Shown here: positions 50,697 through 60,400 of the stretch, piece by piece
Layout of the letters: each line of letters opens with the position of its first letter
Numbering within the stretch: position 1 is the stretch's first letter
Translations under genes and position numbers: made by a program
Assembly (NCBI GenBank): GCA_002472275.1
Contig: DKRQ01000019.1
Span: 140,279 to 204,278, forward strand
DNA from: Bacillales bacterium UBA7278
GTDB taxonomy: Bacteria > Bacillota_I > Bacilli_A > RFN20 > CAG-826
Length of the DNA stretch: 64,000 nucleotides
Direction: 5' to 3'
Notes under the pieces: generated by a model
The model's input: the letters and a program-made list of their open reading frames with translations, nothing else
Databases searched by the model: none
What the model was told of the DNA's origin: nothing

Positions 50697-51644
50697 ATGT
50701 CACTATTCACTGATAAGGTCGACTTAGGGATGGCGGATTCCCGCGAACACTTGATTGAGAAGTATGTTTTCGACGTCAAGAAAGGAACCATCCAAATCCA
50801 CGTCAAACCCGGCTATGAAGCCATCATCAACGGCTACGACAAAATCGGGCCGAACCAAACCAACACCTACAACAAGAAGACGATCGGCACCACGCTCACT
50901 GCTTTCGTCTACCAGAAGGGCAGCATCGCCAAGCCGATCATCGTTCCCTTCTTCGCCGGTCAGCACACCATTTCGCTAGACGCCCATAAGACCGCCAAGG
51001 CCACGTTCGCCCTTGTCGGCACGGCCAAGATCGAGATCGATGACTACAAGGCGCTTGCTCGTTATTTCGACAGCACCGTGACCTATGCCGATGTCGAGAA
51101 AGAACTCCACGAGAACTTCAAGGACGCGTTCTCAATCCACATGACCGCAGCCGCGAAAACCTATATCTCTTCTTCCTCCACCGATGTCTCGATCCACTCG
51201 GATCTCAAAAACATCGCCAAGGCCGGTATCCAGGGCTCTTCCCTCCAGAACACCCTCATCGACATGGGCATGTCCCTTATGTCTTCCGGCATCAGCCTGA
51301 GGCTCAACCCGGTCGGCAACTCCGAGGAGATCATCGCCGCCATCAACGCCAAATTCAACGAAGCCGCCTTCGATGAATTCGACGAGGCCAAAGCCGATAA
51401 GCAGCGTCAAAGGGAAATCGAAGACAAGAAGTTGGACTACCAGCACGAAATCGACGTCATCAACGCTCAGAACACCGATACCCAGAACCGCAACAACAGC
51501 TATGCCTACTCGGGCAATGTCCCAAAGTATCCTCACGGCGCTCCCGCCGCCCCCGATACCGGCAAGAGGTTCTGCTCGCATTGCGGCAGGGAACTCGCCC
51601 CCCGCGACGAATATTGCCCGTCCTGTGGCACCAAGACCCGCTAA
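50697..51644 (+). CDS. SPFH/band-7-like (YdjI-type) protein with a C-terminal zinc ribbon
   Basis: MSLFTDK N-terminus. Beta-rich then helical SPFH-like layout. Coiled segment KADKQRQREIEDKKLDYQHEID. C-terminal CSHCG-x9-CPSCG. Internal acidic AAFDEFDE motif. Confidence 0.45.
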   Translation: MSLFTDKVDLGMADSREHLIEKYVFDVKKGTIQIHVKPGYEAIINGYDKIGPNQTNTYNKKTIGTTLTAFVYQKGSIAKPIIVPFFAGQHTISLDAHKTAKATFALVGTAKIEIDDYKALARYFDSTVTYADVEKELHENFKDAFSIHMTAAAKTYISSSSTDVSIHSDLKNIAKAGIQGSSLQNTLIDMGMSLMSSGISLRLNPVGNSEEIIAAINAKFNEAAFDEFDEAKADKQRQREIEDKKLDYQHEIDVINAQNTDTQNRNNSYAYSGNVPKYPHGAPAAPDTGKRFCSHCGRELAPRDEYCPSCGTKTR

Positions 51645-51669
51645 TCACCACCGATAAGGAGAATCAACA

Positions 51670-52635
51670 ATGGGACTTTTCAAAAGCAAAGAGCAGAAGG
51701 CCGCTGAGGCCGCTGCAAAGCAGAGGCAGCAGCAGCAAGCCGCCATCAACAAGGGTCTACAAGACAGCATGACCCCGAAAGACGATGTTACCCCCTACGC
51801 CAACGAAAAAAAGCGCAGGCAGGAAGAGCAAGCCGCGGCCCAGCACCAAGAAGCCAACCGCGACGAGATCGACGAAATCCTCAGGAACCTCTCCAGGGAA
51901 ATCTCGCTGAGCTTCCCCGACGCCGAAGACGACGCCCAGGAAATCCGCGACCTTTCCGTCAGGGTCAGGAGGATGAACCTTGGCAAGAACCAAGGTGCCA
52001 CCGACGCCATCATGACCTTCATCCGCGCCAAAGCGCAGGACATGATCGTCAAGGCCCACGCCGGCAACTACGCCGCCATCATCGGCTTCTTCGAAGAGCT
52101 TAGGAGCCTCATTAACGACGCGGAGAATCCACAAAAGGCCAAACTTATGGCCGATCCCGCCTACGTCAAGCGTCGTATCCGCGTCGCCGAGCTTTCCGCC
52201 CTCAAGGAAGACCTCCAAGGCCAGAAACAGGCTTTGTATCGCCAACGCGACAAACTCAAATCCAGGATGGAAGCCGGCCTCATTGACCAACGTGAAGCCG
52301 TCTCCAGGGTCGGCGACATCCGCGCTCAAGTCGAAGACTTGGAACGTTCCCTCCAGAACGCCCAGAGCGATTTGAGGGATGCCCAGACCGTCCTCACCGA
52401 GCAGGAGACCCAGATCCGCAACTCCGCGAAAGCCAAGGCCGAGGACATCAACGACTACACCGCGATCGCCGACCAGAAGGCCGACGCCGAGGCGCTTTCC
52501 TCCGAGAAAAACGACGTCATGTCGCAGATCCGTCAGAACAGCACCGATGTTTCGATGGATGACATGCATATGCATGCCAGCACCGGCAAGACCGAACTCA
52601 GCCAAGAACAGGTCGACAACGCCTTCGACTTCTAA
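51670..52635 (+). CDS. Long coiled-coil protein, possible PspA/ESCRT-III-superfamily member or adaptor
   Basis: MGLFKSKEQK N-terminus. Heptad-rich helices over 321 aa. C-terminal acidic peptide ELSQEQVDNAFDF. Confidence 0.35.
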   Translation: MGLFKSKEQKAAEAAAKQRQQQQAAINKGLQDSMTPKDDVTPYANEKKRRQEEQAAAQHQEANRDEIDEILRNLSREISLSFPDAEDDAQEIRDLSVRVRRMNLGKNQGATDAIMTFIRAKAQDMIVKAHAGNYAAIIGFFEELRSLINDAENPQKAKLMADPAYVKRRIRVAELSALKEDLQGQKQALYRQRDKLKSRMEAGLIDQREAVSRVGDIRAQVEDLERSLQNAQSDLRDAQTVLTEQETQIRNSAKAKAEDINDYTAIADQKADAEALSSEKNDVMSQIRQNSTDVSMDDMHMHASTGKTELSQEQVDNAFDF

Positions 52636-52649
52636 GGAGAGAGACGAAC

Positions 52650-53228
52650 ATGTTTGGTAAGAAACCCGCTCAGATGCCTAACCGCACCGACATCAACCTC
52701 AAGTTTTCGTCGAGCCTGCGCCAGTTGAAGCGCTCCATCGACCAGCTCGACCAAAAGATCGAGGCCGAAGTGGCCGCCGCGATTTCCTATAGGAAATCCG
52801 GCAACATCGACGAGGAACATCGTTCCCTCGCCAAGATCCAACGCTACCTCGCCCAGAAGATCCAAAAGGAACGTTTCTATGACAGCGTCGAAGGCGTCAA
52901 AGCCAAAATCGACGATATCCTCGACAAAGTCGAGGTTTCCCGCAACCTCTCCGAGACCTTGGGCAGCATCGGCCAACTCGTCGATTCCAAGGAACTCAAA
53001 TCCATCGTCGGCGAACTCGACACGTTCAACAAGAACTTCGCCAAGACCAACAACATGATGGACGCCTTCATGGGCTCGATGGACGCAACCGTCGGCGAAA
53101 TGAGCGTCGATCCTAGCCTCACCGCCTCCGTTCAGGCGATGGTCGGCGAAAGAATGAAGGGGTACGAGACTCGCATTGAGGAGCAGGCCGAGGCCGACCT
53201 CGATGAGAGCGCGTTCAATTTTCAATAA
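52650..53228 (+). CDS. ESCRT-III (Snf7/CHMP)-like protein 1
   Basis: 192 aa. MFGKKP N-terminus. Basic alpha1-alpha2 hairpin (LRQLKRSIDQLDQKIEAEVAAAISYRKSGNIDEEHRSLAKIQRYLAQKIQ). LSETLGSIGQLV...IVGELDTFNKNF...MMDAFMGSMD parallels CHMP alpha3-alpha5. Acidic tail EEQAEADLDESAFNFQ. Confidence 0.6.
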   Translation: MFGKKPAQMPNRTDINLKFSSSLRQLKRSIDQLDQKIEAEVAAAISYRKSGNIDEEHRSLAKIQRYLAQKIQKERFYDSVEGVKAKIDDILDKVEVSRNLSETLGSIGQLVDSKELKSIVGELDTFNKNFAKTNNMMDAFMGSMDATVGEMSVDPSLTASVQAMVGERMKGYETRIEEQAEADLDESAFNFQ

Positions 53229-58889: not shown

Positions 58890-58900
58890 ACAAGGAATGA

Positions 58901-58930
58901 ACCGGTAGGGGCTCCCTATCGGTTTTTCTT
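58901..58930 (+). terminator. Rho-independent terminator after the protease gene
   Basis: accggtagg / loop ggctc / cctatcggt, followed by ttttctt. Confidence 0.7.
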
Positions 58931-58963
58931 AATGTTCGCGTGCAAACGCGATAAAGTAATTCC

Positions 58964-60400
58964 ATGCCGAAAACCAAAGTACCGCAGAACGTGAAGCCCG
59001 AAGGCTATTGGAGGGCCATCGGGGCTTTTTCCATCGATTTGGCCCTAACGATCGTGGCCATCGTCCTCCTCTATGTCTCGATTGGCAACACCCTTATTTA
59101 TAAGGCCGTCGACTATGCGGGCGACATCGCCAAGATGGACGCCTTCATGGAAGGGACCGCCCTCGTCAATATCAAGGCCCCCAAATCCTATGGCTATTTG
59201 GACTTCCAGGACAAGGAAGGGGAAGTGCCGGCCTATCAAAAGTACATCGATCGCGTTTGGAACTATTTCACCGTCTTATGCGCGGACCCCAATTCGGGAT
59301 ATGACATCAACCCGCCGATGACCTCCTTCGATAACGAACACGACTTCGTGCCCTTCACCGGCGAGAAGACCGTCGAAAACATCGGCAAATGGGTCTATGA
59401 CCATTACTTTACCAGCAATCTTTGGAAGGCCCCTGTGAAAGAGGGCACCCAGGATCCCGACTATTCGAAGGCCCCGATTCCCGCCGAAGACCCGACGGGA
59501 CGCGAGGCCAAACTGAAGACCGCGATGTATGACGTTTCCACGACCACCCCAAAAGGAACCTACGTCTTCACCGTGAGCCACATCTTGGCCCAGAACAAAT
59601 ACGCCGCTTTGGCCAAAACCGAAAGGCTCCATGGCTGGTTCGCCTGGATGCCTTGGTTCGCGGTGGCCCCCGTCATCTTCTTCTTCGTCATCCCCGTGGC
59701 GAGCCGTAACGGCAGGACCATCGGCAAAAGGATCGTCGGAACAGCGGTATTAGGAAGCGACGGCTATACCGCCAAGAAGCTCAACATCGTCCTTCACTAT
59801 TTCTTCCCGACCATCTATTGGTTCATTCTGATGTTGCCTTATCAAGGCATAACCTTTCCCCTCTTCGTCTTATTGCTCCTAGTGGAATACATGACTTTGG
59901 TCATGACCCACAACCATCAATCCATCCACGACAAGATCGCCCAGACGATCGTAGTCAACGCCAAGCAATCCACGTGGTTCGCGAGTAGGGAGGATGAAGA
60001 GGAATATCTCAAGAGCCACCCCAATTCCTACGTCGCAAAGCTTCGCAGGGACGAGGAATGGGAATCCAATCCCCGTTACGCGGCGACCACCGCGGCCATC
60101 GCCGCCCAGGACGCCATCGTCGACTCCACGACGATCGGCAGGGCCAGGAAGGAAGCCGAGGCCATCTCCTCCTTCGACGAATTCGAGCGCAAATCCGATG
60201 AGGATTACGCGAGAAGGGAATCCGAGGCAAAGGCTAACTCCGAGCTTCAGGAAGAGCCCGAAGAGGAACTATCCGAGCAGCAGAAGCAAGAACTCGCCGA
60301 CCTCGCCAAGATGGAAGGCCTAAGCGAAGAAGAAGGCTCCGCCGCCCTCGAGGAAGAAGAACCCGAGGGCGAGGAAGACGACTTCGCCGACAAGAAGTAA
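58964..60400 (+). CDS. RDD-family membrane protein with a long acidic C-terminal tail
   Basis: YWRAIGAFSIDLALTIV, RNGRTIGKRIVG, SIHDKIAQTIVV (R-D-D pattern). C-terminal E/D-rich ~130 aa ending EEDDFADKK. Confidence 0.65.
   Translation: MPKTKVPQNVKPEGYWRAIGAFSIDLALTIVAIVLLYVSIGNTLIYKAVDYAGDIAKMDAFMEGTALVNIKAPKSYGYLDFQDKEGEVPAYQKYIDRVWNYFTVLCADPNSGYDINPPMTSFDNEHDFVPFTGEKTVENIGKWVYDHYFTSNLWKAPVKEGTQDPDYSKAPIPAEDPTGREAKLKTAMYDVSTTTPKGTYVFTVSHILAQNKYAALAKTERLHGWFAWMPWFAVAPVIFFFVIPVASRNGRTIGKRIVGTAVLGSDGYTAKKLNIVLHYFFPTIYWFILMLPYQGITFPLFVLLLLVEYMTLVMTHNHQSIHDKIAQTIVVNAKQSTWFASREDEEEYLKSHPNSYVAKLRRDEEWESNPRYAATTAAIAAQDAIVDSTTIGRARKEAEAISSFDEFERKSDEDYARRESEAKANSELQEEPEEELSEQQKQELADLAKMEGLSEEEGSAALEEEEPEGEEDDFADKK

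What the first reader, a model, noticed from the sequence alone, without database searches (positions are those of the whole stretch)
50697..60400. Bacterial ESCRT-III + Vps4-like (MIT-AAA+) gene cluster with SPFH, protease and RDD partners
Nine co-directional genes are packed tightly (gaps of 25 bp or less, or 1-4-bp overlaps, through 57876). (1) An SPFH/band-7-like protein with a C-terminal Zn ribbon. (2) A 321-aa coiled-coil protein starting MGLFKSK. (3, 5) Two ~190-aa proteins whose size, MFGKK-type N-terminus, basic helical hairpin, central '...K(S/R)GN.D...A....lr.k......' segment, Met-rich alpha4-5 region and acidic tail parallel eukaryotic and archaeal Snf7/CHMP ESCRT-III subunits. (4, 6, 7) Three ATPases with the Vps4 layout. 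Each has a ~75-aa helical N-domain (MIT-like), a low-complexity linker and one classic AAA cassette, with a sensor-1 context ATN(C/R/K)P(Y/W)x(L/I)D like the Vps4 ATNIPWQLD. (8) A double Zn-ribbon/trypsin-like protease. (9) After a terminator, an RDD-family membrane protein with an acidic tail. The established bacterial ESCRT-III-superfamily members are PspA/Vipp1-type proteins, and a dedicated MIT-AAA partner is not part of their described systems. The ESCRT-III + Vps4 pair is the hallmark of archaeal Cdv and eukaryotic ESCRT membrane-scission machinery. The SPFH + Zn-ribbon gene recalls YdjI of the B. subtilis pspA-ydjGHI membrane-stress operon, which supports a membrane-remodelling or repair role. 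The flanking genes (L7/L12, rpoB/rpoC, nadE) on the same contig make the bacterial origin unambiguous. To my knowledge this nine-gene configuration has not been characterised experimentally.
Basis: partly seen in the sequence, partly recalled or inferred. Interest (0 to 1): 0.93.

Follow-up and report, generated by a model that had tools for sequence, protein, structure and literature searches.

The report
Bacterial ESCRT-III plus MIT-AAA ATPase operon
An uncultured gut/rumen Firmicute carries an eight-gene operon with two true Snf7-type ESCRT-III proteins and three Vps4-like (MIT domain + AAA) ATPases, a pairing that current literature says exists only in archaea and eukaryotes.

Summary
The nine ORFs exist exactly as described. 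The conserved unit is eight genes (50697-58889), from a promoter-like site to a strong terminator. The RDD gene lies outside it and is not conserved elsewhere.

- **ESCRT-III proteins.** Both ~190-aa proteins belong to the Snf7 family. Evidence: Pfam Snf7 hits across both families, best PDB hits CHMP1B and CdvB, a profile hit to a eukaryotic ESCRT-III, and an AlphaFold model with the hairpin plus alpha3-5 layout.
- **Tail peptide.** A conserved acidic-aromatic C-terminal peptide (DFFxELDI type) recurs on SnfB, SnfA, the coiled-coil protein and ATPase 3. It is a candidate MIT-binding motif.
- **SPFH claim.** Sequence tests do not support an SPFH identity for gene 1.
- **Distribution.** The same gene order recurs in about 20 independent contigs from Erysipelotrichaceae, other Bacilli and Clostridia. 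Neighbours often include surface lipoproteins, an FtsX-type ABC transporter or TIR proteins.

Most likely this is an ATP-driven membrane-remodelling machine. Its cellular role (repair, vesicle budding or defence) is open.

The parts
50622..50649 (+). Promoter-like site (TCGATA-16-TATAAT with TG extension) upstream of G1
   Evidence: Consensus scan, 10 of 12 matches. This is a prediction only.
50697..51644 (+). G1: 315-aa cytoplasmic protein. It has an MSLFTDK N-terminus, a ~215-aa globular domain of unassigned fold, a coiled coil and a C-terminal CxxC...CxxC Zn ribbon.
   Evidence: Zn_Ribbon_1 hit, E=1.3e-6. Conserved as the first or second gene in all related loci at 25-74% identity. No SPFH hit. 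No TM segment.
51670..52635 (+). G2: 321-aa coiled-coil protein. It has an MGLFKSK basic N-terminus and an acidic tail ending in a hydrophobic peptide (NAFDF).
   Evidence: Conserved in position but fast-evolving, at 15-58% identity. No Pfam family in 12 members. Only generic coiled-coil PDB hits. Tail motif shown.
52650..53228 (+). G3 (SnfA): 192-aa Snf7-family ESCRT-III protein. It has an MFGKK N-terminus and an acidic tail ending in SAFNFQ.
   Evidence: Pfam Snf7 E=5.6e-5, and 6 of 12 family members hit Snf7 with best E=2e-6. Profile against the PDB: the best hit is CHMP1B, E=0.012, aligned over 17-167. NCBI names a 77%-identical homologue 'Snf7 family protein'.
53228..54505 (+). G4 (AAA1): 425-aa ATPase with a helical N-domain (~85 aa), a low-complexity linker and a classic AAA cassette. 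The pore loop is non-aromatic (SHVG) and the SRH carries a single Arg.
   Evidence: PF00004 E=4e-31. Motifs. NJ tree. Its N-domain is weakly related to the AAA3 N-domain (hhalign E=5e-4).
54527..55114 (+). G5 (SnfB): 195-aa Snf7-family ESCRT-III protein with a variable linker and an invariant C-terminal DFFSELDI peptide. It is among the most conserved genes of the cluster.
   Evidence: Pfam Snf7 E=7.9e-5, and 10 of 17 members hit Snf7. The family profile reaches a euglenid ESCRT-III (P0211) at E=7.8e-6 in 1.8 billion proteins. PDB best hit is CdvB. AF2 model with helices 2-48, 52-108, 116-143 and 153-166. Foldseek top hits are CHMP1B, CdvB, CHMP2A/3 and Snf7.
55124..56308 (+). G6 (AAA2): 394-aa Vps4-layout ATPase. 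It has an MIT-like three-helix N-domain (1-75), a linker and a canonical AAA cassette (GPPGCGKS, KYVG pore loop, FFDEID, ATNRPW, RGQR) followed by a C-terminal helix.
56305..57876 (+). G7 (AAA3): 523-aa ATPase with a helical N-domain (~80 aa), a linker and an AAA cassette (GPPGTGKT, QGLG pore loop, ATNKPWDID, RPGRF). A Pro/Ala/Glu-rich tail carries AFDDFLSGIDD.
   Evidence: PF00004 E=2e-31 and a weak Vps4_C hit, E=0.033. CdvC model 159.9 bits. Motifs and tail. In locus L001 its N-domain is fused to LRR_5 instead of an AAA cassette.
57942..58889 (+). G8: 315-aa cytoplasmic protease with two N-terminal Zn ribbons and a trypsin/HtrA-like domain (His152, Asp194, Ser263).
   Evidence: Trypsin_2 E=1.9e-24. 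The triad and four CxxC pairs are conserved across loci. Present in every complete locus, last or first in the operon. No TM segment.
58899..58925 (+). Intrinsic-terminator-like hairpin (12-bp stem, 6 G-C pairs, T-rich tail) that ends the operon
43612..50481 (-). Divergent operon linked to the cluster in part of the lineage. Its genes are:
- U1, Zn-ribbon/helical protein, 49486-50481
- U2, N-anchored Big_3 surface protein, 47621-49486
- U3, lipoprotein, 46703-47608
- U4 and U5, FtsX/MacB-like permeases, 45449-46687 and 44487-45449
- U6, ABC ATPase, within 43612-44799
   Evidence: Pfam. TM segments and lipoboxes. U1-U6 homologues sit in the same divergent position in L002-L004 and L009-L010, and U2/U3 homologues lie downstream in the Clostridia locus L018. 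Absent from L005, L011, L013 and L015, so this operon is an accessory.

Best explanation
The operon G1-G8 encodes a cytoplasmic ESCRT-like membrane-remodelling machine.

Shown:
- Two Snf7-family subunits (SnfA, SnfB) have the ESCRT-III build. This comprises a short basic/hydrophobic N-terminus, a long alpha1-alpha2 hairpin, alpha3-alpha5, a flexible linker and a conserved terminal peptide.
- Three paralogous single-cassette classic AAA ATPases follow the Vps4 plan: a helical N-domain, a low-complexity linker, an AAA cassette and a C-terminal helix.
- The N-domain of AAA2 models as an MIT three-helix bundle.

Inferred:
- SnfA and SnfB co-polymerise on the inner face of the cytoplasmic membrane.
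- G1 (globular domain, coiled coil, Zn ribbon) and G2 (MGLFKSK N-terminus, coiled coil) nucleate or anchor the polymer.
- The MIT-like N-domains dock on the acidic-aromatic tail peptides (DFFxELDI, SFxF/L, FDDFF) displayed by SnfB, SnfA, G2 and AAA3.
- The ATPases pull subunits out of the polymer through the central pore. They may act as a mixed hexamer in which AAA2 supplies the only aromatic pore loop. This would drive turnover, constriction and scission or resealing.
- The Zn-ribbon/trypsin protease G8 processes or clears a component.

Biological role (less certain): repair of membrane damage, or outward budding and sorting of surface lipoproteins. It may be deployed as part of an envelope-stress or conflict response.
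For: Snf7 membership:
- Pfam Snf7 E of about 6-8e-5 for both window proteins. Snf7 is hit in 10 of 17 SnfB and 6 of 12 SnfA relatives, and PspA_IM30 is never hit.
- Independent best PDB hits are CHMP1B for SnfA and CdvB for SnfB.
- The SnfB profile finds a euglenid ESCRT-III at E=7.8e-6 among 1.84 billion proteins.
- The AF2 model shows a hairpin plus alpha3-5 plus a disordered tail. The top Foldseek hits are almost all ESCRT-III and rank above PspA/Vipp1.

MIT fold:
- AF2 pLDDT 91.9, helices at 5-24, 28-48 and 52-73.

AAA cassettes:
- The CdvC/FtsH HMM score ratio is 1.21 for AAA2 and 1.19 for AAA3.
- Verified references give 1.12-1.41 for Vps4, spastin and katanin, and 0.22-0.74 for p97, PAN and FtsH.
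- In the NJ tree the split {meiotic clade + AAA1-3} against {p97 D1, p97 D2, PAN, FtsH} has 173 of 200 bootstraps.

Tail peptide: conserved across four protein families.

Operon structure and conservation: plus loci.

Localisation: all G1-G8 proteins lack TM segments.
Against: - Every structural and sequence match of the small proteins is individually weak. Both window proteins score 23 bits against the Pfam cutoff of 27.3. PDB E-values are 0.01-0.08 and Foldseek E-values are above 0.1. Coiled-coil composition can inflate such hits.
- Only one of the three N-domains was modelled.
- The tail peptide does not match the known MIM1 or MIM2 consensus, and no binding was tested.
- The ATPases are not Vps4 orthologues. 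The CdvC model scores 160 bits against a 650-bit cutoff. The SRH is RxxR as in Cdc48/PAN, not RRR. Two of the three lack the aromatic pore loop.
Long-branch attraction could create the sister grouping.
- No ESCRT-II/wH or CdvA homologue is present.
- Nothing shows membrane binding.
Confidence: 0.7

Rival explanations
1. The cluster is an anti-phage or inter-bacterial conflict system. The ESCRT-III/AAA/protease module would be the effector (membrane disruption, abortive infection) or a damage-repair arm. TIR, LRR or Sel1 proteins would act as sensors or co-effectors. This rival concerns the biological role and is compatible with the molecular mechanism above.
For: - TIR_2-domain proteins lie next to or inside the cluster in four independent loci of two classes. 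These are L013 and L014, L017, where the TIR gene is in the operon, and L114, which also has a Macro-domain gene.
- Further neighbours are Cas9, WYL and PRTase/StiP/PELOTA, SNF2 helicase, HTH/Peptidase_M78, and AAA_14/DUF4143 and STAND-like ATPases.
- The genomic location differs in every genome, and the distribution is patchy. Close SnfA relatives occur in 3 of 185,579 species representatives. This pattern is typical of accessory islands.
Against: - There are no specific PADLOC hits. The IetA/TRIP13 hits are generic AAA similarity and the NsnC hit is chance.
- The in-operon LRR_5 proteins are exported lipoproteins, not cytosolic sensors.
- The window itself has no TIR or other defence gene beside the cluster.
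- There are no phage or plasmid matches.
- Core genes are well conserved. SnfB is 70-83% identical across the Bacilli loci and 35-37% in Clostridia (L017, L018), rather than diversifying rapidly.
Confidence: 0.2
2. The cluster is a cytoplasmic protein-quality-control or unfoldase-protease system. Three classic AAA unfoldases would feed a trypsin-like protease, and the small helical proteins would be coiled-coil adaptors whose Snf7 similarity is spurious.
For: - The classic AAA cassettes score about equally against the Cdc48, PAN and CdvC models.
- A serine protease is always present.
- The Snf7 matches of the window proteins are below Pfam's gathering score.
- G2 gives only generic coiled-coil hits.
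Against: - Two independent paralogue families both converge on ESCRT-III by Pfam, PDB profile search, exhaustive profile search and fold search.
- The N-domain is an MIT fold, which is the dedicated ESCRT-III-tail reader.
- The trypsin-like domain is HtrA/MarP-like. It is not a chambered protease that docks AAA rings.
- The layout is a tail peptide after a flexible linker, as in ESCRT-III.
Confidence: 0.07
3. The cluster is an assembly chimera or contamination, that is, an archaeal or eukaryotic ESCRT fragment joined to a bacterial contig.
For: None found.
Against: - The same cluster is embedded among bacterial housekeeping genes in many independent assemblies. Examples are rpsD/ezrA/thiI in L005, whiA/gap in L015, ldh in L019 and tuf/rpoBC/nadE in the window.
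- Identical SnfB occurs on contigs up to 227 kb, from four data sources.
- G+C and skew are continuous with the flanks.
- The genes use overlapping start/stop coupling, as is typical of bacteria.
Confidence: 0.02

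Closest known systems
Archaeal Cdv / euryarchaeal ESCRT systems (CdvB/ESCRT-III + CdvC/Vps4), especially the 'Meth_adaptin' type of Makarova et al. 2024 (PMC10936438)
   Same: - One or more Snf7-family genes lie directly upstream of an MIT + single-AAA ATPase in one operon.
- ESCRT-III tails end in a short peptide after a flexible linker.
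- Accessory Zn-ribbon proteins are present.
- Meth_adaptin loci include a protein built as globular (SPFH) domain + coiled coil + Zn ribbon, the same architecture as G1. They also include Ig-like surface or cargo proteins, comparable to U2 (Big_3) here.
   Different: - The host is bacterial (Bacillota).
- There are three paralogous ATPases instead of one. They are sister to the meiotic clade, not inside Vps4, and their SRH is of the RxxR type.
- There is no wH/ESCRT-II, CdvA or adaptin-appendage protein.
- An obligatory Zn-ribbon/trypsin protease is present.
- The SPFH identity of G1 is unproven.
- The tail peptide (DFFxELDI) is unlike MIM1 or MIM2.
Eukaryotic ESCRT-III / Vps4 (CHMP/Snf7 + VPS4, MIT-MIM recognition)
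   Same: - Snf7 Pfam family membership.
- An MxLFGKK-type N-terminus (from my own knowledge of CHMP sequences).
- The five-helix core.
- An MIT three-helix bundle on the ATPase.
- Several MIT proteins reading ESCRT-III tails, including an MIT-bearing protease partner in eukaryotes (calpain-7).
   Different: - No ESCRT-0, -I or -II, and no Vta1 or beta-domain.
- The ATPase cassette is not orthologous.
- The protease here carries Zn ribbons, not MIT domains.
Bacterial PspA/Vipp1/LiaH systems (ESCRT-III superfamily), including pspA-ydjGHI of B. subtilis
   Same: - Bacterial host.
- ESCRT-III superfamily fold.
- Likely action on the inner face of the membrane.
- Association with an ABC transporter or envelope genes in some loci.
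- A partner built as globular domain + Zn ribbon, resembling YdjI.
   Different: - SnfA and SnfB hit Snf7 and never PspA_IM30.
- PspA systems have no MIT-AAA partner. PspF and the double-AAA partner described in PMC11237479 are different ATPases.
- G1 does not match Band_7_1, whereas a YdjI-like sequence does at E=5e-43.
Bacterial Vps4-like ATPases transferred from archaea (e.g. Opitutus ACB74714.1; Ravi/Aravind et al., PMC11237479)
   Same: A Vps4-like AAA ATPase in bacteria, predicted to act close to the membrane.
   Different: In those operons snf7 is replaced by a TPR + 6TM protein, and the taxa are Cyanobacteria, Bacteroidetes, Verrucomicrobia and others. Here two Snf7 genes are present and the taxa are Bacillota. 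I could not test the relationship between the two ATPase groups.

Membership tests
ESCRT-III proper (Snf7 family, Pfam PF03357) | Significant match to the Snf7 profile, and not to PspA_IM30 | tested here: met
   - The window proteins score 23.3 and 22.8 bits (E=5.6e-5 and 7.9e-5), just under the 27.3-bit cutoff.
- At family level, 10 of 17 SnfB and 6 of 12 SnfA relatives hit Snf7. Many carry precomputed PF03357, and there is no PspA_IM30 hit.
- The SnfB profile reaches a eukaryotic ESCRT-III at E=7.8e-6.
ESCRT-III proper (Snf7 family, Pfam PF03357) | Core fold: long alpha1-alpha2 hairpin, alpha3, alpha4, alpha5, then a flexible tail | tested here: met
   - AF2 model of SnfB: helices 2-48, 52-108, 116-127, 133-143 and 153-166, with a disordered tail at 167-187. 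pLDDT is 88-96 over residues 11-80, which covers most of alpha1 and the first half of alpha2, and 70.8 overall.
- Foldseek top hits are CHMP1B, CdvB, Loki CHMP4-7, CHMP2A/3, Asgard ESCRT-IIIB and Snf7. E-values are weak (>=0.13).
- SnfA was not modelled.
ESCRT-III proper (Snf7 family, Pfam PF03357) | C-terminal MIT-interacting motif | tested here: inconclusive
   A conserved terminal peptide follows a variable linker: DFFxEL(D/N)(I/L/V) in SnfB and SFx(F/L)x in SnfA. It does not match the MIM1 or MIM2 consensus, which I cite from memory. Binding was not tested.
ESCRT-III proper (Snf7 family, Pfam PF03357) | Polymerisation on membranes and membrane deformation | not testable with these tools
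   This needs biochemistry or EM.
Vps4 / CdvC (ESCRT-IV) | N-terminal MIT three-helix bundle | tested here: met
   - AAA2 residues 1-82: pLDDT 91.9.
- The AAA1 and AAA3 N-domains were not modelled. They are helical, of similar length, and weakly related to each other.
Vps4 / CdvC (ESCRT-IV) | Single classic AAA cassette with intact Walker A/B, sensor 1, Arg fingers and an aromatic pore loop 1 | tested here: met
   - AAA2 has all of these: GPPGCGKS, KYVG, FFDEID, ATNRPW and RGQR.
- AAA3 has all except the aromatic pore loop (QGLG).
- AAA1 has pore loop SHVG and only one SRH Arg.
Vps4 / CdvC (ESCRT-IV) | Orthology: placement inside the Vps4/CdvC clade | tested here: not met
   - NCBIfam CdvC equivalog model: 160.6, 159.9 and 81.7 bits against a 650-bit cutoff.
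- NJ tree: AAA1-3 are monophyletic (196/200) and sister to Vps4 + spastin + katanin (173/200). They are never inside that clade (0/200 with Vps4).
- The SRH is RxxR, not the Vps4 RRR.
- Caveats: crude method, few references, no archaeal CdvC.
Vps4 / CdvC (ESCRT-IV) | C-terminal helix after the lid (Vps4_C) | tested here: inconclusive
   AAA2 and AAA3 align with the CdvC model through positions 364-366 of 370. Pfam Vps4_C is hit only weakly in AAA3 (E=0.033) and faintly in one homologue. The eukaryotic beta-domain insertion is absent, judging by length.
SPFH / Band 7 (G1; YdjI-like Band_7_1) | Match to the Band_7 or Band_7_1 profile | tested here: not met
   - No hit at E<=1 in 12 family members.
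- No SPFH protein appears among the PDB profile hits.
- hhalign of the G1 N-domain profile against a sequence verified as Band_7_1 (E=5.3e-43) gives probability 0.2%. Only the Zn ribbons align.
SPFH / Band 7 (G1; YdjI-like Band_7_1) | SPFH alpha/beta fold | not testable with these tools
The globular + coiled coil + Zn ribbon architecture resembles YdjI and the Meth_adaptin SPFH protein (PMC10936438).
PspA / Vipp1 (PF04012) | Match to the PspA_IM30 profile | tested here: not met
   No PspA_IM30 hit in 29 SnfA/SnfB sequences. One out-of-register TIGR02977 hit (E=0.0097). PspA and Vipp1 rank below ESCRT-III in the fold search.
Known anti-phage systems (PADLOC) | Specific match of components to a defined system | tested here: not met
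   Only generic AAA hits (IetA, TRIP13), generic trypsin hits and a chance NsnC hit.

The most novel reading that the evidence does not exclude
This is a third, bacterial lineage of complete ESCRT machinery (Snf7-type ESCRT-III plus a dedicated MIT-AAA disassemblase). Its ATPases branch beside, not within, the archaeal/eukaryotic Vps4/meiotic clade. It performs reverse-topology membrane scission, such as outward vesicle budding or sorting of surface lipoproteins, or resealing of damaged membrane, in monoderm gut bacteria. If so, the ESCRT-III/MIT-AAA partnership either predates the archaeal ancestor or crossed between domains anciently.
Probability: 0.3. Interest if true: 0.92.

Novelty: new variant of a known kind. 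Interest (0 to 1): 0.82.

Why it matters
[quoted passage not shown] They also state that a Vps4-like ATPase appears absent in bacteria (PMC7619361). Evolutionary scenarios therefore place the origin of the ESCRT-III/Vps4 partnership in early archaea.

A conserved bacterial operon with Snf7-type subunits, MIT-AAA ATPases and a tail-peptide code would change this picture.
- It would provide a bacterial model for ATP-driven ESCRT-III remodelling.
- It would make the origin of Vps4 and of the meiotic AAA clade testable with a new outgroup or sister lineage.
- It could explain vesicle formation or membrane repair in wall-poor gut Firmicutes.

The three-paralogue ATPase set, of which only one has an aromatic pore loop, also offers a natural experiment on hetero-hexameric AAA function.

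Tried and rejected
- **PADLOC scan.** IetA/TRIP13 hits are generic AAA similarity. The NsnC (Menshen) hit of SnfA is chance, because NsnC is an inactive-PIN + nuclease protein.
- **SPFH identity of G1.** Only the Zn ribbon aligns. A relaxed alignment is collinear but not significant.
- **G2.** No Pfam family, only coiled-coil PDB hits, and no hhalign relation to SnfA or SnfB.
- **Mobile-element origin.** tblastn of G1 against plasmids and of SnfB against phages found nothing. A viral-contig scan with the AAA2 alignment found only generic AAA cassettes at <=37% identity without the N-domain. A viral scan with the broad SnfB alignment could not be run.
- **Shared N-domain on the LRR, TIR and Sel1 neighbours.** This occurs only in L001. 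The in-operon LRR_5 proteins are lipoproteins.
- **RDD as a partner.** No homologue lies in any related locus.
- **SpoVK/CbxX affinity of the cassettes.** Only a 15-bit hit for AAA1.
- **Metagenome scan with G1.** It added only a few loci.

Full report
**1. What is there**

| Gene | Coordinates |
|---|---|
| G1 | 50697-51644 |
| G2 | 51670-52635 |
| G3 | 52650-53228 |
| G4 | 53228-54505 |
| G5 | 54527-55114 |
| G6 | 55124-56308 |
| G7 | 56305-57876 |
| G8 | 57942-58889 |
| G9 | 58964-60400 |

A promoter-like site lies at 50622-50649. The strongest terminator-like hairpin of the region lies at 58899-58925, directly after G8. None of G1-G8 has a predicted membrane segment, whereas G9 has four. 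The flanks are ordinary bacterial genes: L1, rpoB, rpoC, EF-G and EF-Tu upstream, and NAD synthase and nicotinate phosphoribosyltransferase downstream. Base composition is continuous across the region.

**2. The conserved unit is eight genes**

Homologues of the small proteins and of ATPase 2 were found in metagenomes and MAGs. I read their contigs.

In every locus long enough to judge, the order is the same:
1. Zn-ribbon protein
2. coiled-coil protein
3. SnfA
4. AAA1
5. SnfB
6. AAA2
7. a third ATPase
8. a Zn-ribbon/trypsin protease

- The protease is last in Bacilli and first in Clostridia.
- Identities to the window range from 70-83% for SnfB to 15-58% for the coiled-coil protein.
- G9 (RDD) has no homologue in any related locus, so it is a neighbour and not a partner.
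- The genomic surroundings differ in each genome: rpsD/ezrA/thiI, whiA/gap, ldh, a GGDEF-EAL gene, or Cas9. The cluster therefore behaves as an accessory island inside bona fide bacterial chromosomes. This also rules out a chimera.
- The window's SnfB is identical to a protein seen on contigs up to 227 kb. It is 99% identical to MBE6135152.1 of an Erysipelotrichaceae MAG.
- Other hosts are named Bacilli bacterium (goat rumen, water-deer abomasum), Acholeplasmatales, Clostridia bacterium and Candidatus Coproplasma.
- The system is rare. Close SnfA relatives occur in 3 of 185,579 species representatives. The SnfB profile finds only 18 clusters at 50% identity in an exhaustive search of 1.84 billion proteins.

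**3. The small proteins are Snf7-type ESCRT-III**

- Both window proteins hit Pfam Snf7 over most of the model (E=5.6e-5 and 7.9e-5). They fall just under the gathering score.
- Scanning relatives one by one, Snf7 is the only family hit repeatedly: 10 of 17 SnfB and 6 of 12 SnfA members. PspA_IM30 is never hit.
- Family profiles searched against all PDB sequences give an ESCRT-III protein as the best hit in both cases, independently. SnfA hits CHMP1B (E=0.012, nearly full length). SnfB hits Sulfolobus CdvB (E=0.077).
- The exhaustive profile search with SnfB reached one protein outside the family that is a bona fide ESCRT-III, at E=7.8e-6. It scores Pfam Snf7 8e-34 and comes from the euglenid Petalomonas.
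- The AlphaFold model of SnfB shows the following, in order: a long hairpin (helices 2-48 and 52-108) that is confident (pLDDT 88-96) over residues 11-80; three shorter helices; a disordered linker; and a tiny terminal helix.
- The best Foldseek matches are CHMP1B, CdvB, Loki CHMP4-7, CHMP2A/CHMP3, Asgard ESCRT-IIIB and Snf7, ahead of PspA and Vipp1.
- Each signal is weak on its own and coiled-coil bias is a concern. The convergence of four methods on two paralogue families makes homology the reasonable reading.
- SnfA and SnfB are only distantly related to each other (hhalign E=0.002).
- The MFGKK / MGLFKSK / MSLFTDK N-termini of SnfA, G2 and G1 resemble the MxLFGKK N-termini of human CHMP proteins. 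That comparison rests on my own knowledge of those sequences.

**4. The ATPases**

All three have one PF00004 cassette preceded by a ~75-85-aa helical domain and a low-complexity linker.

*N-domain of AAA2.* Residues 1-82 were modelled with 40 sequences and form a confident three-helix bundle (pLDDT 91.9).
- The MIT domains of MITD1, calpain-7, chitin synthase, yeast Vps4, VPS4A, katanin, spartin, ULK3 and spastin fill much of the top 23 hits. TPR-like and designed repeats are interspersed.
- Foldseek E-values are uninformative for so small a fold, but the highest TM-scores (0.76-0.80) are again MIT domains.
They are family-specific and weakly related to each other.

*Cassette motifs*.

| ATPase | Walker A | Pore loop 1 | Other motifs |
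|---|---|---|---|
| AAA2 | GPPGCGKS | KYVG (aromatic) | FFDEID, ATNRPW, RGQR; canonical |
| AAA3 | GPPGTGKT | QGLG | ATNKPWDID, RPGRF |
| AAA1 | not itemised | SHVG | only one Arg in the SRH |

*Classification.* The NCBIfam scores of AAA2 and AAA3 are nearly equal for Cdc48 and CdvC (about 160 bits).

| Sequence | CdvC/FtsH score ratio |
|---|---|
| Vps4 (two references) | 1.32-1.38 |
| spastin | 1.41 |
| katanin | 1.12 |
| p97 D1 | 0.64 |
| p97 D2 | 0.74 |
| PAN | 0.56 |
| FtsH | 0.22 |
| window AAA2 | 1.21 |
| window AAA3 | 1.19 |
| window AAA1 | 0.76 |

*Tree.* I built a neighbour-joining tree from 282 columns with 200 bootstraps.
- The three bacterial families are monophyletic (196/200).
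- AAA2 and AAA3 are sisters (182/200).
- The split {Vps4, spastin, katanin, AAA1-3} against {p97 D1, p97 D2, PAN, FtsH} has 173/200 support.
- The bacterial proteins never fall inside the meiotic clade.

They are therefore Vps4-like in architecture and lie on the Vps4 side of the classic AAA clade. They are not Vps4 orthologues. The method is crude, lacks archaeal CdvC, and may suffer from long-branch attraction.

**5. A shared tail peptide**

- SnfB ends, after a variable low-complexity linker, in an invariant DFFxEL(D/N)(I/L/V).
- SnfA ends in an acidic stretch plus SFx(F/L)x.
- G2 ends in an acidic stretch plus (F/L)(F/L)(N/D)x(I/L/F).
- AAA3 in several loci carries FDDFFSL, DDFFSSLDD or TDFFDDLDL near the end of a Pro/Ala/Glu-rich tail.
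- In locus L001 the AAA3 N-domain is fused to LRR repeats, and that protein ends in DEFFADL.

This is the arrangement expected of a short linear motif read by a docking domain. The MIT-like N-domains are the obvious candidates. This step is inference; nothing was tested.

**6. The other core genes**

*G1* has a ~215-aa globular domain, a coiled coil and a Zn ribbon.
There is no Band_7 or Band_7_1 hit in 12 members, and no SPFH protein among PDB profile hits.
- hhalign against a verified Band_7_1 protein aligns only the Zn ribbon.
- The architecture does parallel YdjI and the SPFH + coiled coil + Zn ribbon protein of the archaeal Meth_adaptin ESCRT loci (PMC10936438). The fold question therefore stays open.

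*G2* belongs to no known family.

*G8* is a cytoplasmic HtrA/MarP-like serine protease. It has an intact His/Asp/Ser triad and two conserved Zn ribbons.

**7. Context**

*Divergent operon.* Divergently upstream in the window lies an operon encoding a Zn-ribbon protein, an N-anchored Big_3 surface protein, a lipoprotein, two FtsX/MacB-like permeases and an ABC ATPase.
- The same operon sits in the same position in two other Bacilli lineages.
- Two of its genes follow the cluster in a Clostridia locus.

*Surface lipoproteins.* In several loci, large LRR_5 proteins are inserted between AAA3 and the protease. They carry signal peptides with lipoboxes and are therefore surface lipoproteins.

*TIR and defence-type neighbours.*
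- TIR_2 proteins lie beside or inside the cluster in four loci of two classes. They are often fused to an N-terminal Zn ribbon and to Sel1 repeats or a TM2 domain. One locus also has a Macro-domain gene.
- Cas9, WYL, PRTase/StiP/PELOTA and SNF2 genes occur nearby in single loci.
- There is no specific PADLOC match and no phage, plasmid or viral-contig homologue.

**8. Comparison with the literature**

- Makarova et al. [quoted passage not shown]
- A 2025 review (PMC7619361) states that a Vps4-like ATPase appears absent in bacteria.
- Ravi, Aravind and colleagues (PMC11237479, main text and supplement) describe three things. The first is bacterial Vps4-like ATPases whose snf7 partner is replaced by a TPR-6TM protein. 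The second is PspA with a double-AAA ATPase. The third is a few divergent bacterial Snf7 proteins. They do not describe this Bacillota operon.
- Full-text searches for the combination found nothing else.
- NCBI's pipeline already labels some members 'Snf7 family protein', so the similarity is visible to automatic annotation. The system as such appears undescribed.

**9. Interpretation**

The best-supported reading is an ATP-driven ESCRT-like membrane-remodelling module.
- SnfA and SnfB form a polymer on the cytoplasmic face of the membrane.
- G1 and G2 nucleate or anchor it.
- MIT-like domains read the tail peptides.
- A possibly mixed AAA hexamer extracts subunits.
- A dedicated protease acts on some component.

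The cellular role is open. The linked ABC/FtsX transporter and surface lipoproteins fit envelope repair, or outward budding and sorting of surface proteins. The recurring TIR neighbours and the island-like distribution fit a conflict or immunity role. These roles are not mutually exclusive with the mechanism.

**10. Limits**

- Only two structure predictions were possible.
- The reference AAA sequences came from memory, although they were verified by HMM.
- No archaeal sequences could be fetched.
- All functional steps beyond domain identity are inferred.

Noticed in passing
window 58964-60400 (+): The RDD-family membrane protein (Pfam RDD 40.5 bits) has four TM segments and a long acidic tail ending in EEDDFADKK. 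It lies behind the operon terminator and has no counterpart in any related locus. The tail loosely resembles the acidic-aromatic tail peptides of the cluster.
   Followed up: partly
window 40047-50481 (-): Divergent operon. It encodes a Zn-ribbon/helical protein (U1), a Big_3 surface protein (U2), a lipoprotein (U3), two FtsX/MacB-like permeases (U4, U5) and an ABC ATPase (U6). Further on lie a secreted trypsin-like protein (41732-43447) and a lipoprotein (40047-41735). U1-U6 co-occur with the cluster in some lineages only.
   Followed up: partly
window 60498-61825 (+): A DUF3990 protein (283 aa, with an HTH-like N-terminus) overlaps a 159-aa ORF by 4 bp. A DUF3990 gene also lies near the cluster in L019. 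This may be a small two-gene module of unknown function.
   Followed up: no
L001 5930-7159: In this Bacilli MAG the third ATPase is replaced. The replacement has the AAA3-type N-domain (56% identity over 79 aa) fused to LRR_5 repeats and ends in DEFFADL. The N-domain is therefore a portable module.
   Followed up: partly
L017 11236-12804; L018 11125-12582; L114 11296-13104: In the Clostridia versions the third ATPase is a RuvB-like AAA+ (RuvB_N, AAA_lid_4, WHD_RuvB). In L018 its N-terminus matches the AAA3 N-domain model faintly (hmmsearch E=0.0044). L017 gave only a weak BLAST hit (E=3.7e-5, 25% identity over 265 residues) spanning the N-domain and the start of the cassette. L114 was not compared.
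   Followed up: no
L013 445-2427 (-); L014 109-4128; L017 2357-4681; L114 51-1694 (-): TIR_2-domain proteins recur next to or inside the cluster. In L013 and L017 the sequences, which I inspected, show an N-terminal Zn ribbon fused to TIR_2, Sel1 and (in L013) LRR_5. In L114 the TIR protein carries a TM2 domain and a Macro-domain gene lies nearby. In L014 there are two TIR_2 proteins and a separate Sel1/LRR_5 protein. This hints at a link to NAD-derived signalling or cell-death pathways.
   Followed up: partly
L002 15163-17964; L009 11833-14580; L011 15199-18051; L018 7276-9303, 12619-16784: Large LRR_5 (BspA-like) proteins encoded inside the operon carry signal peptides with lipoboxes. The cytoplasmic ESCRT-like genes are therefore co-transcribed with surface lipoproteins.
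   Followed up: partly
L002 8442-8975: An extra 177-aa gene is inserted between G1 and G2 in one lineage. Its N-terminus, MGFLDRFKRNK, is of the same type as those of G1, G2 and SnfA.
   Followed up: no
window 57600-57800 (within G7): A long Pro/Ala/Glu repeat (APAPEPAPAPAP...) forms the C-terminal linker of AAA3. Its length varies greatly between homologues (protein lengths 450-523 aa).
   Followed up: no
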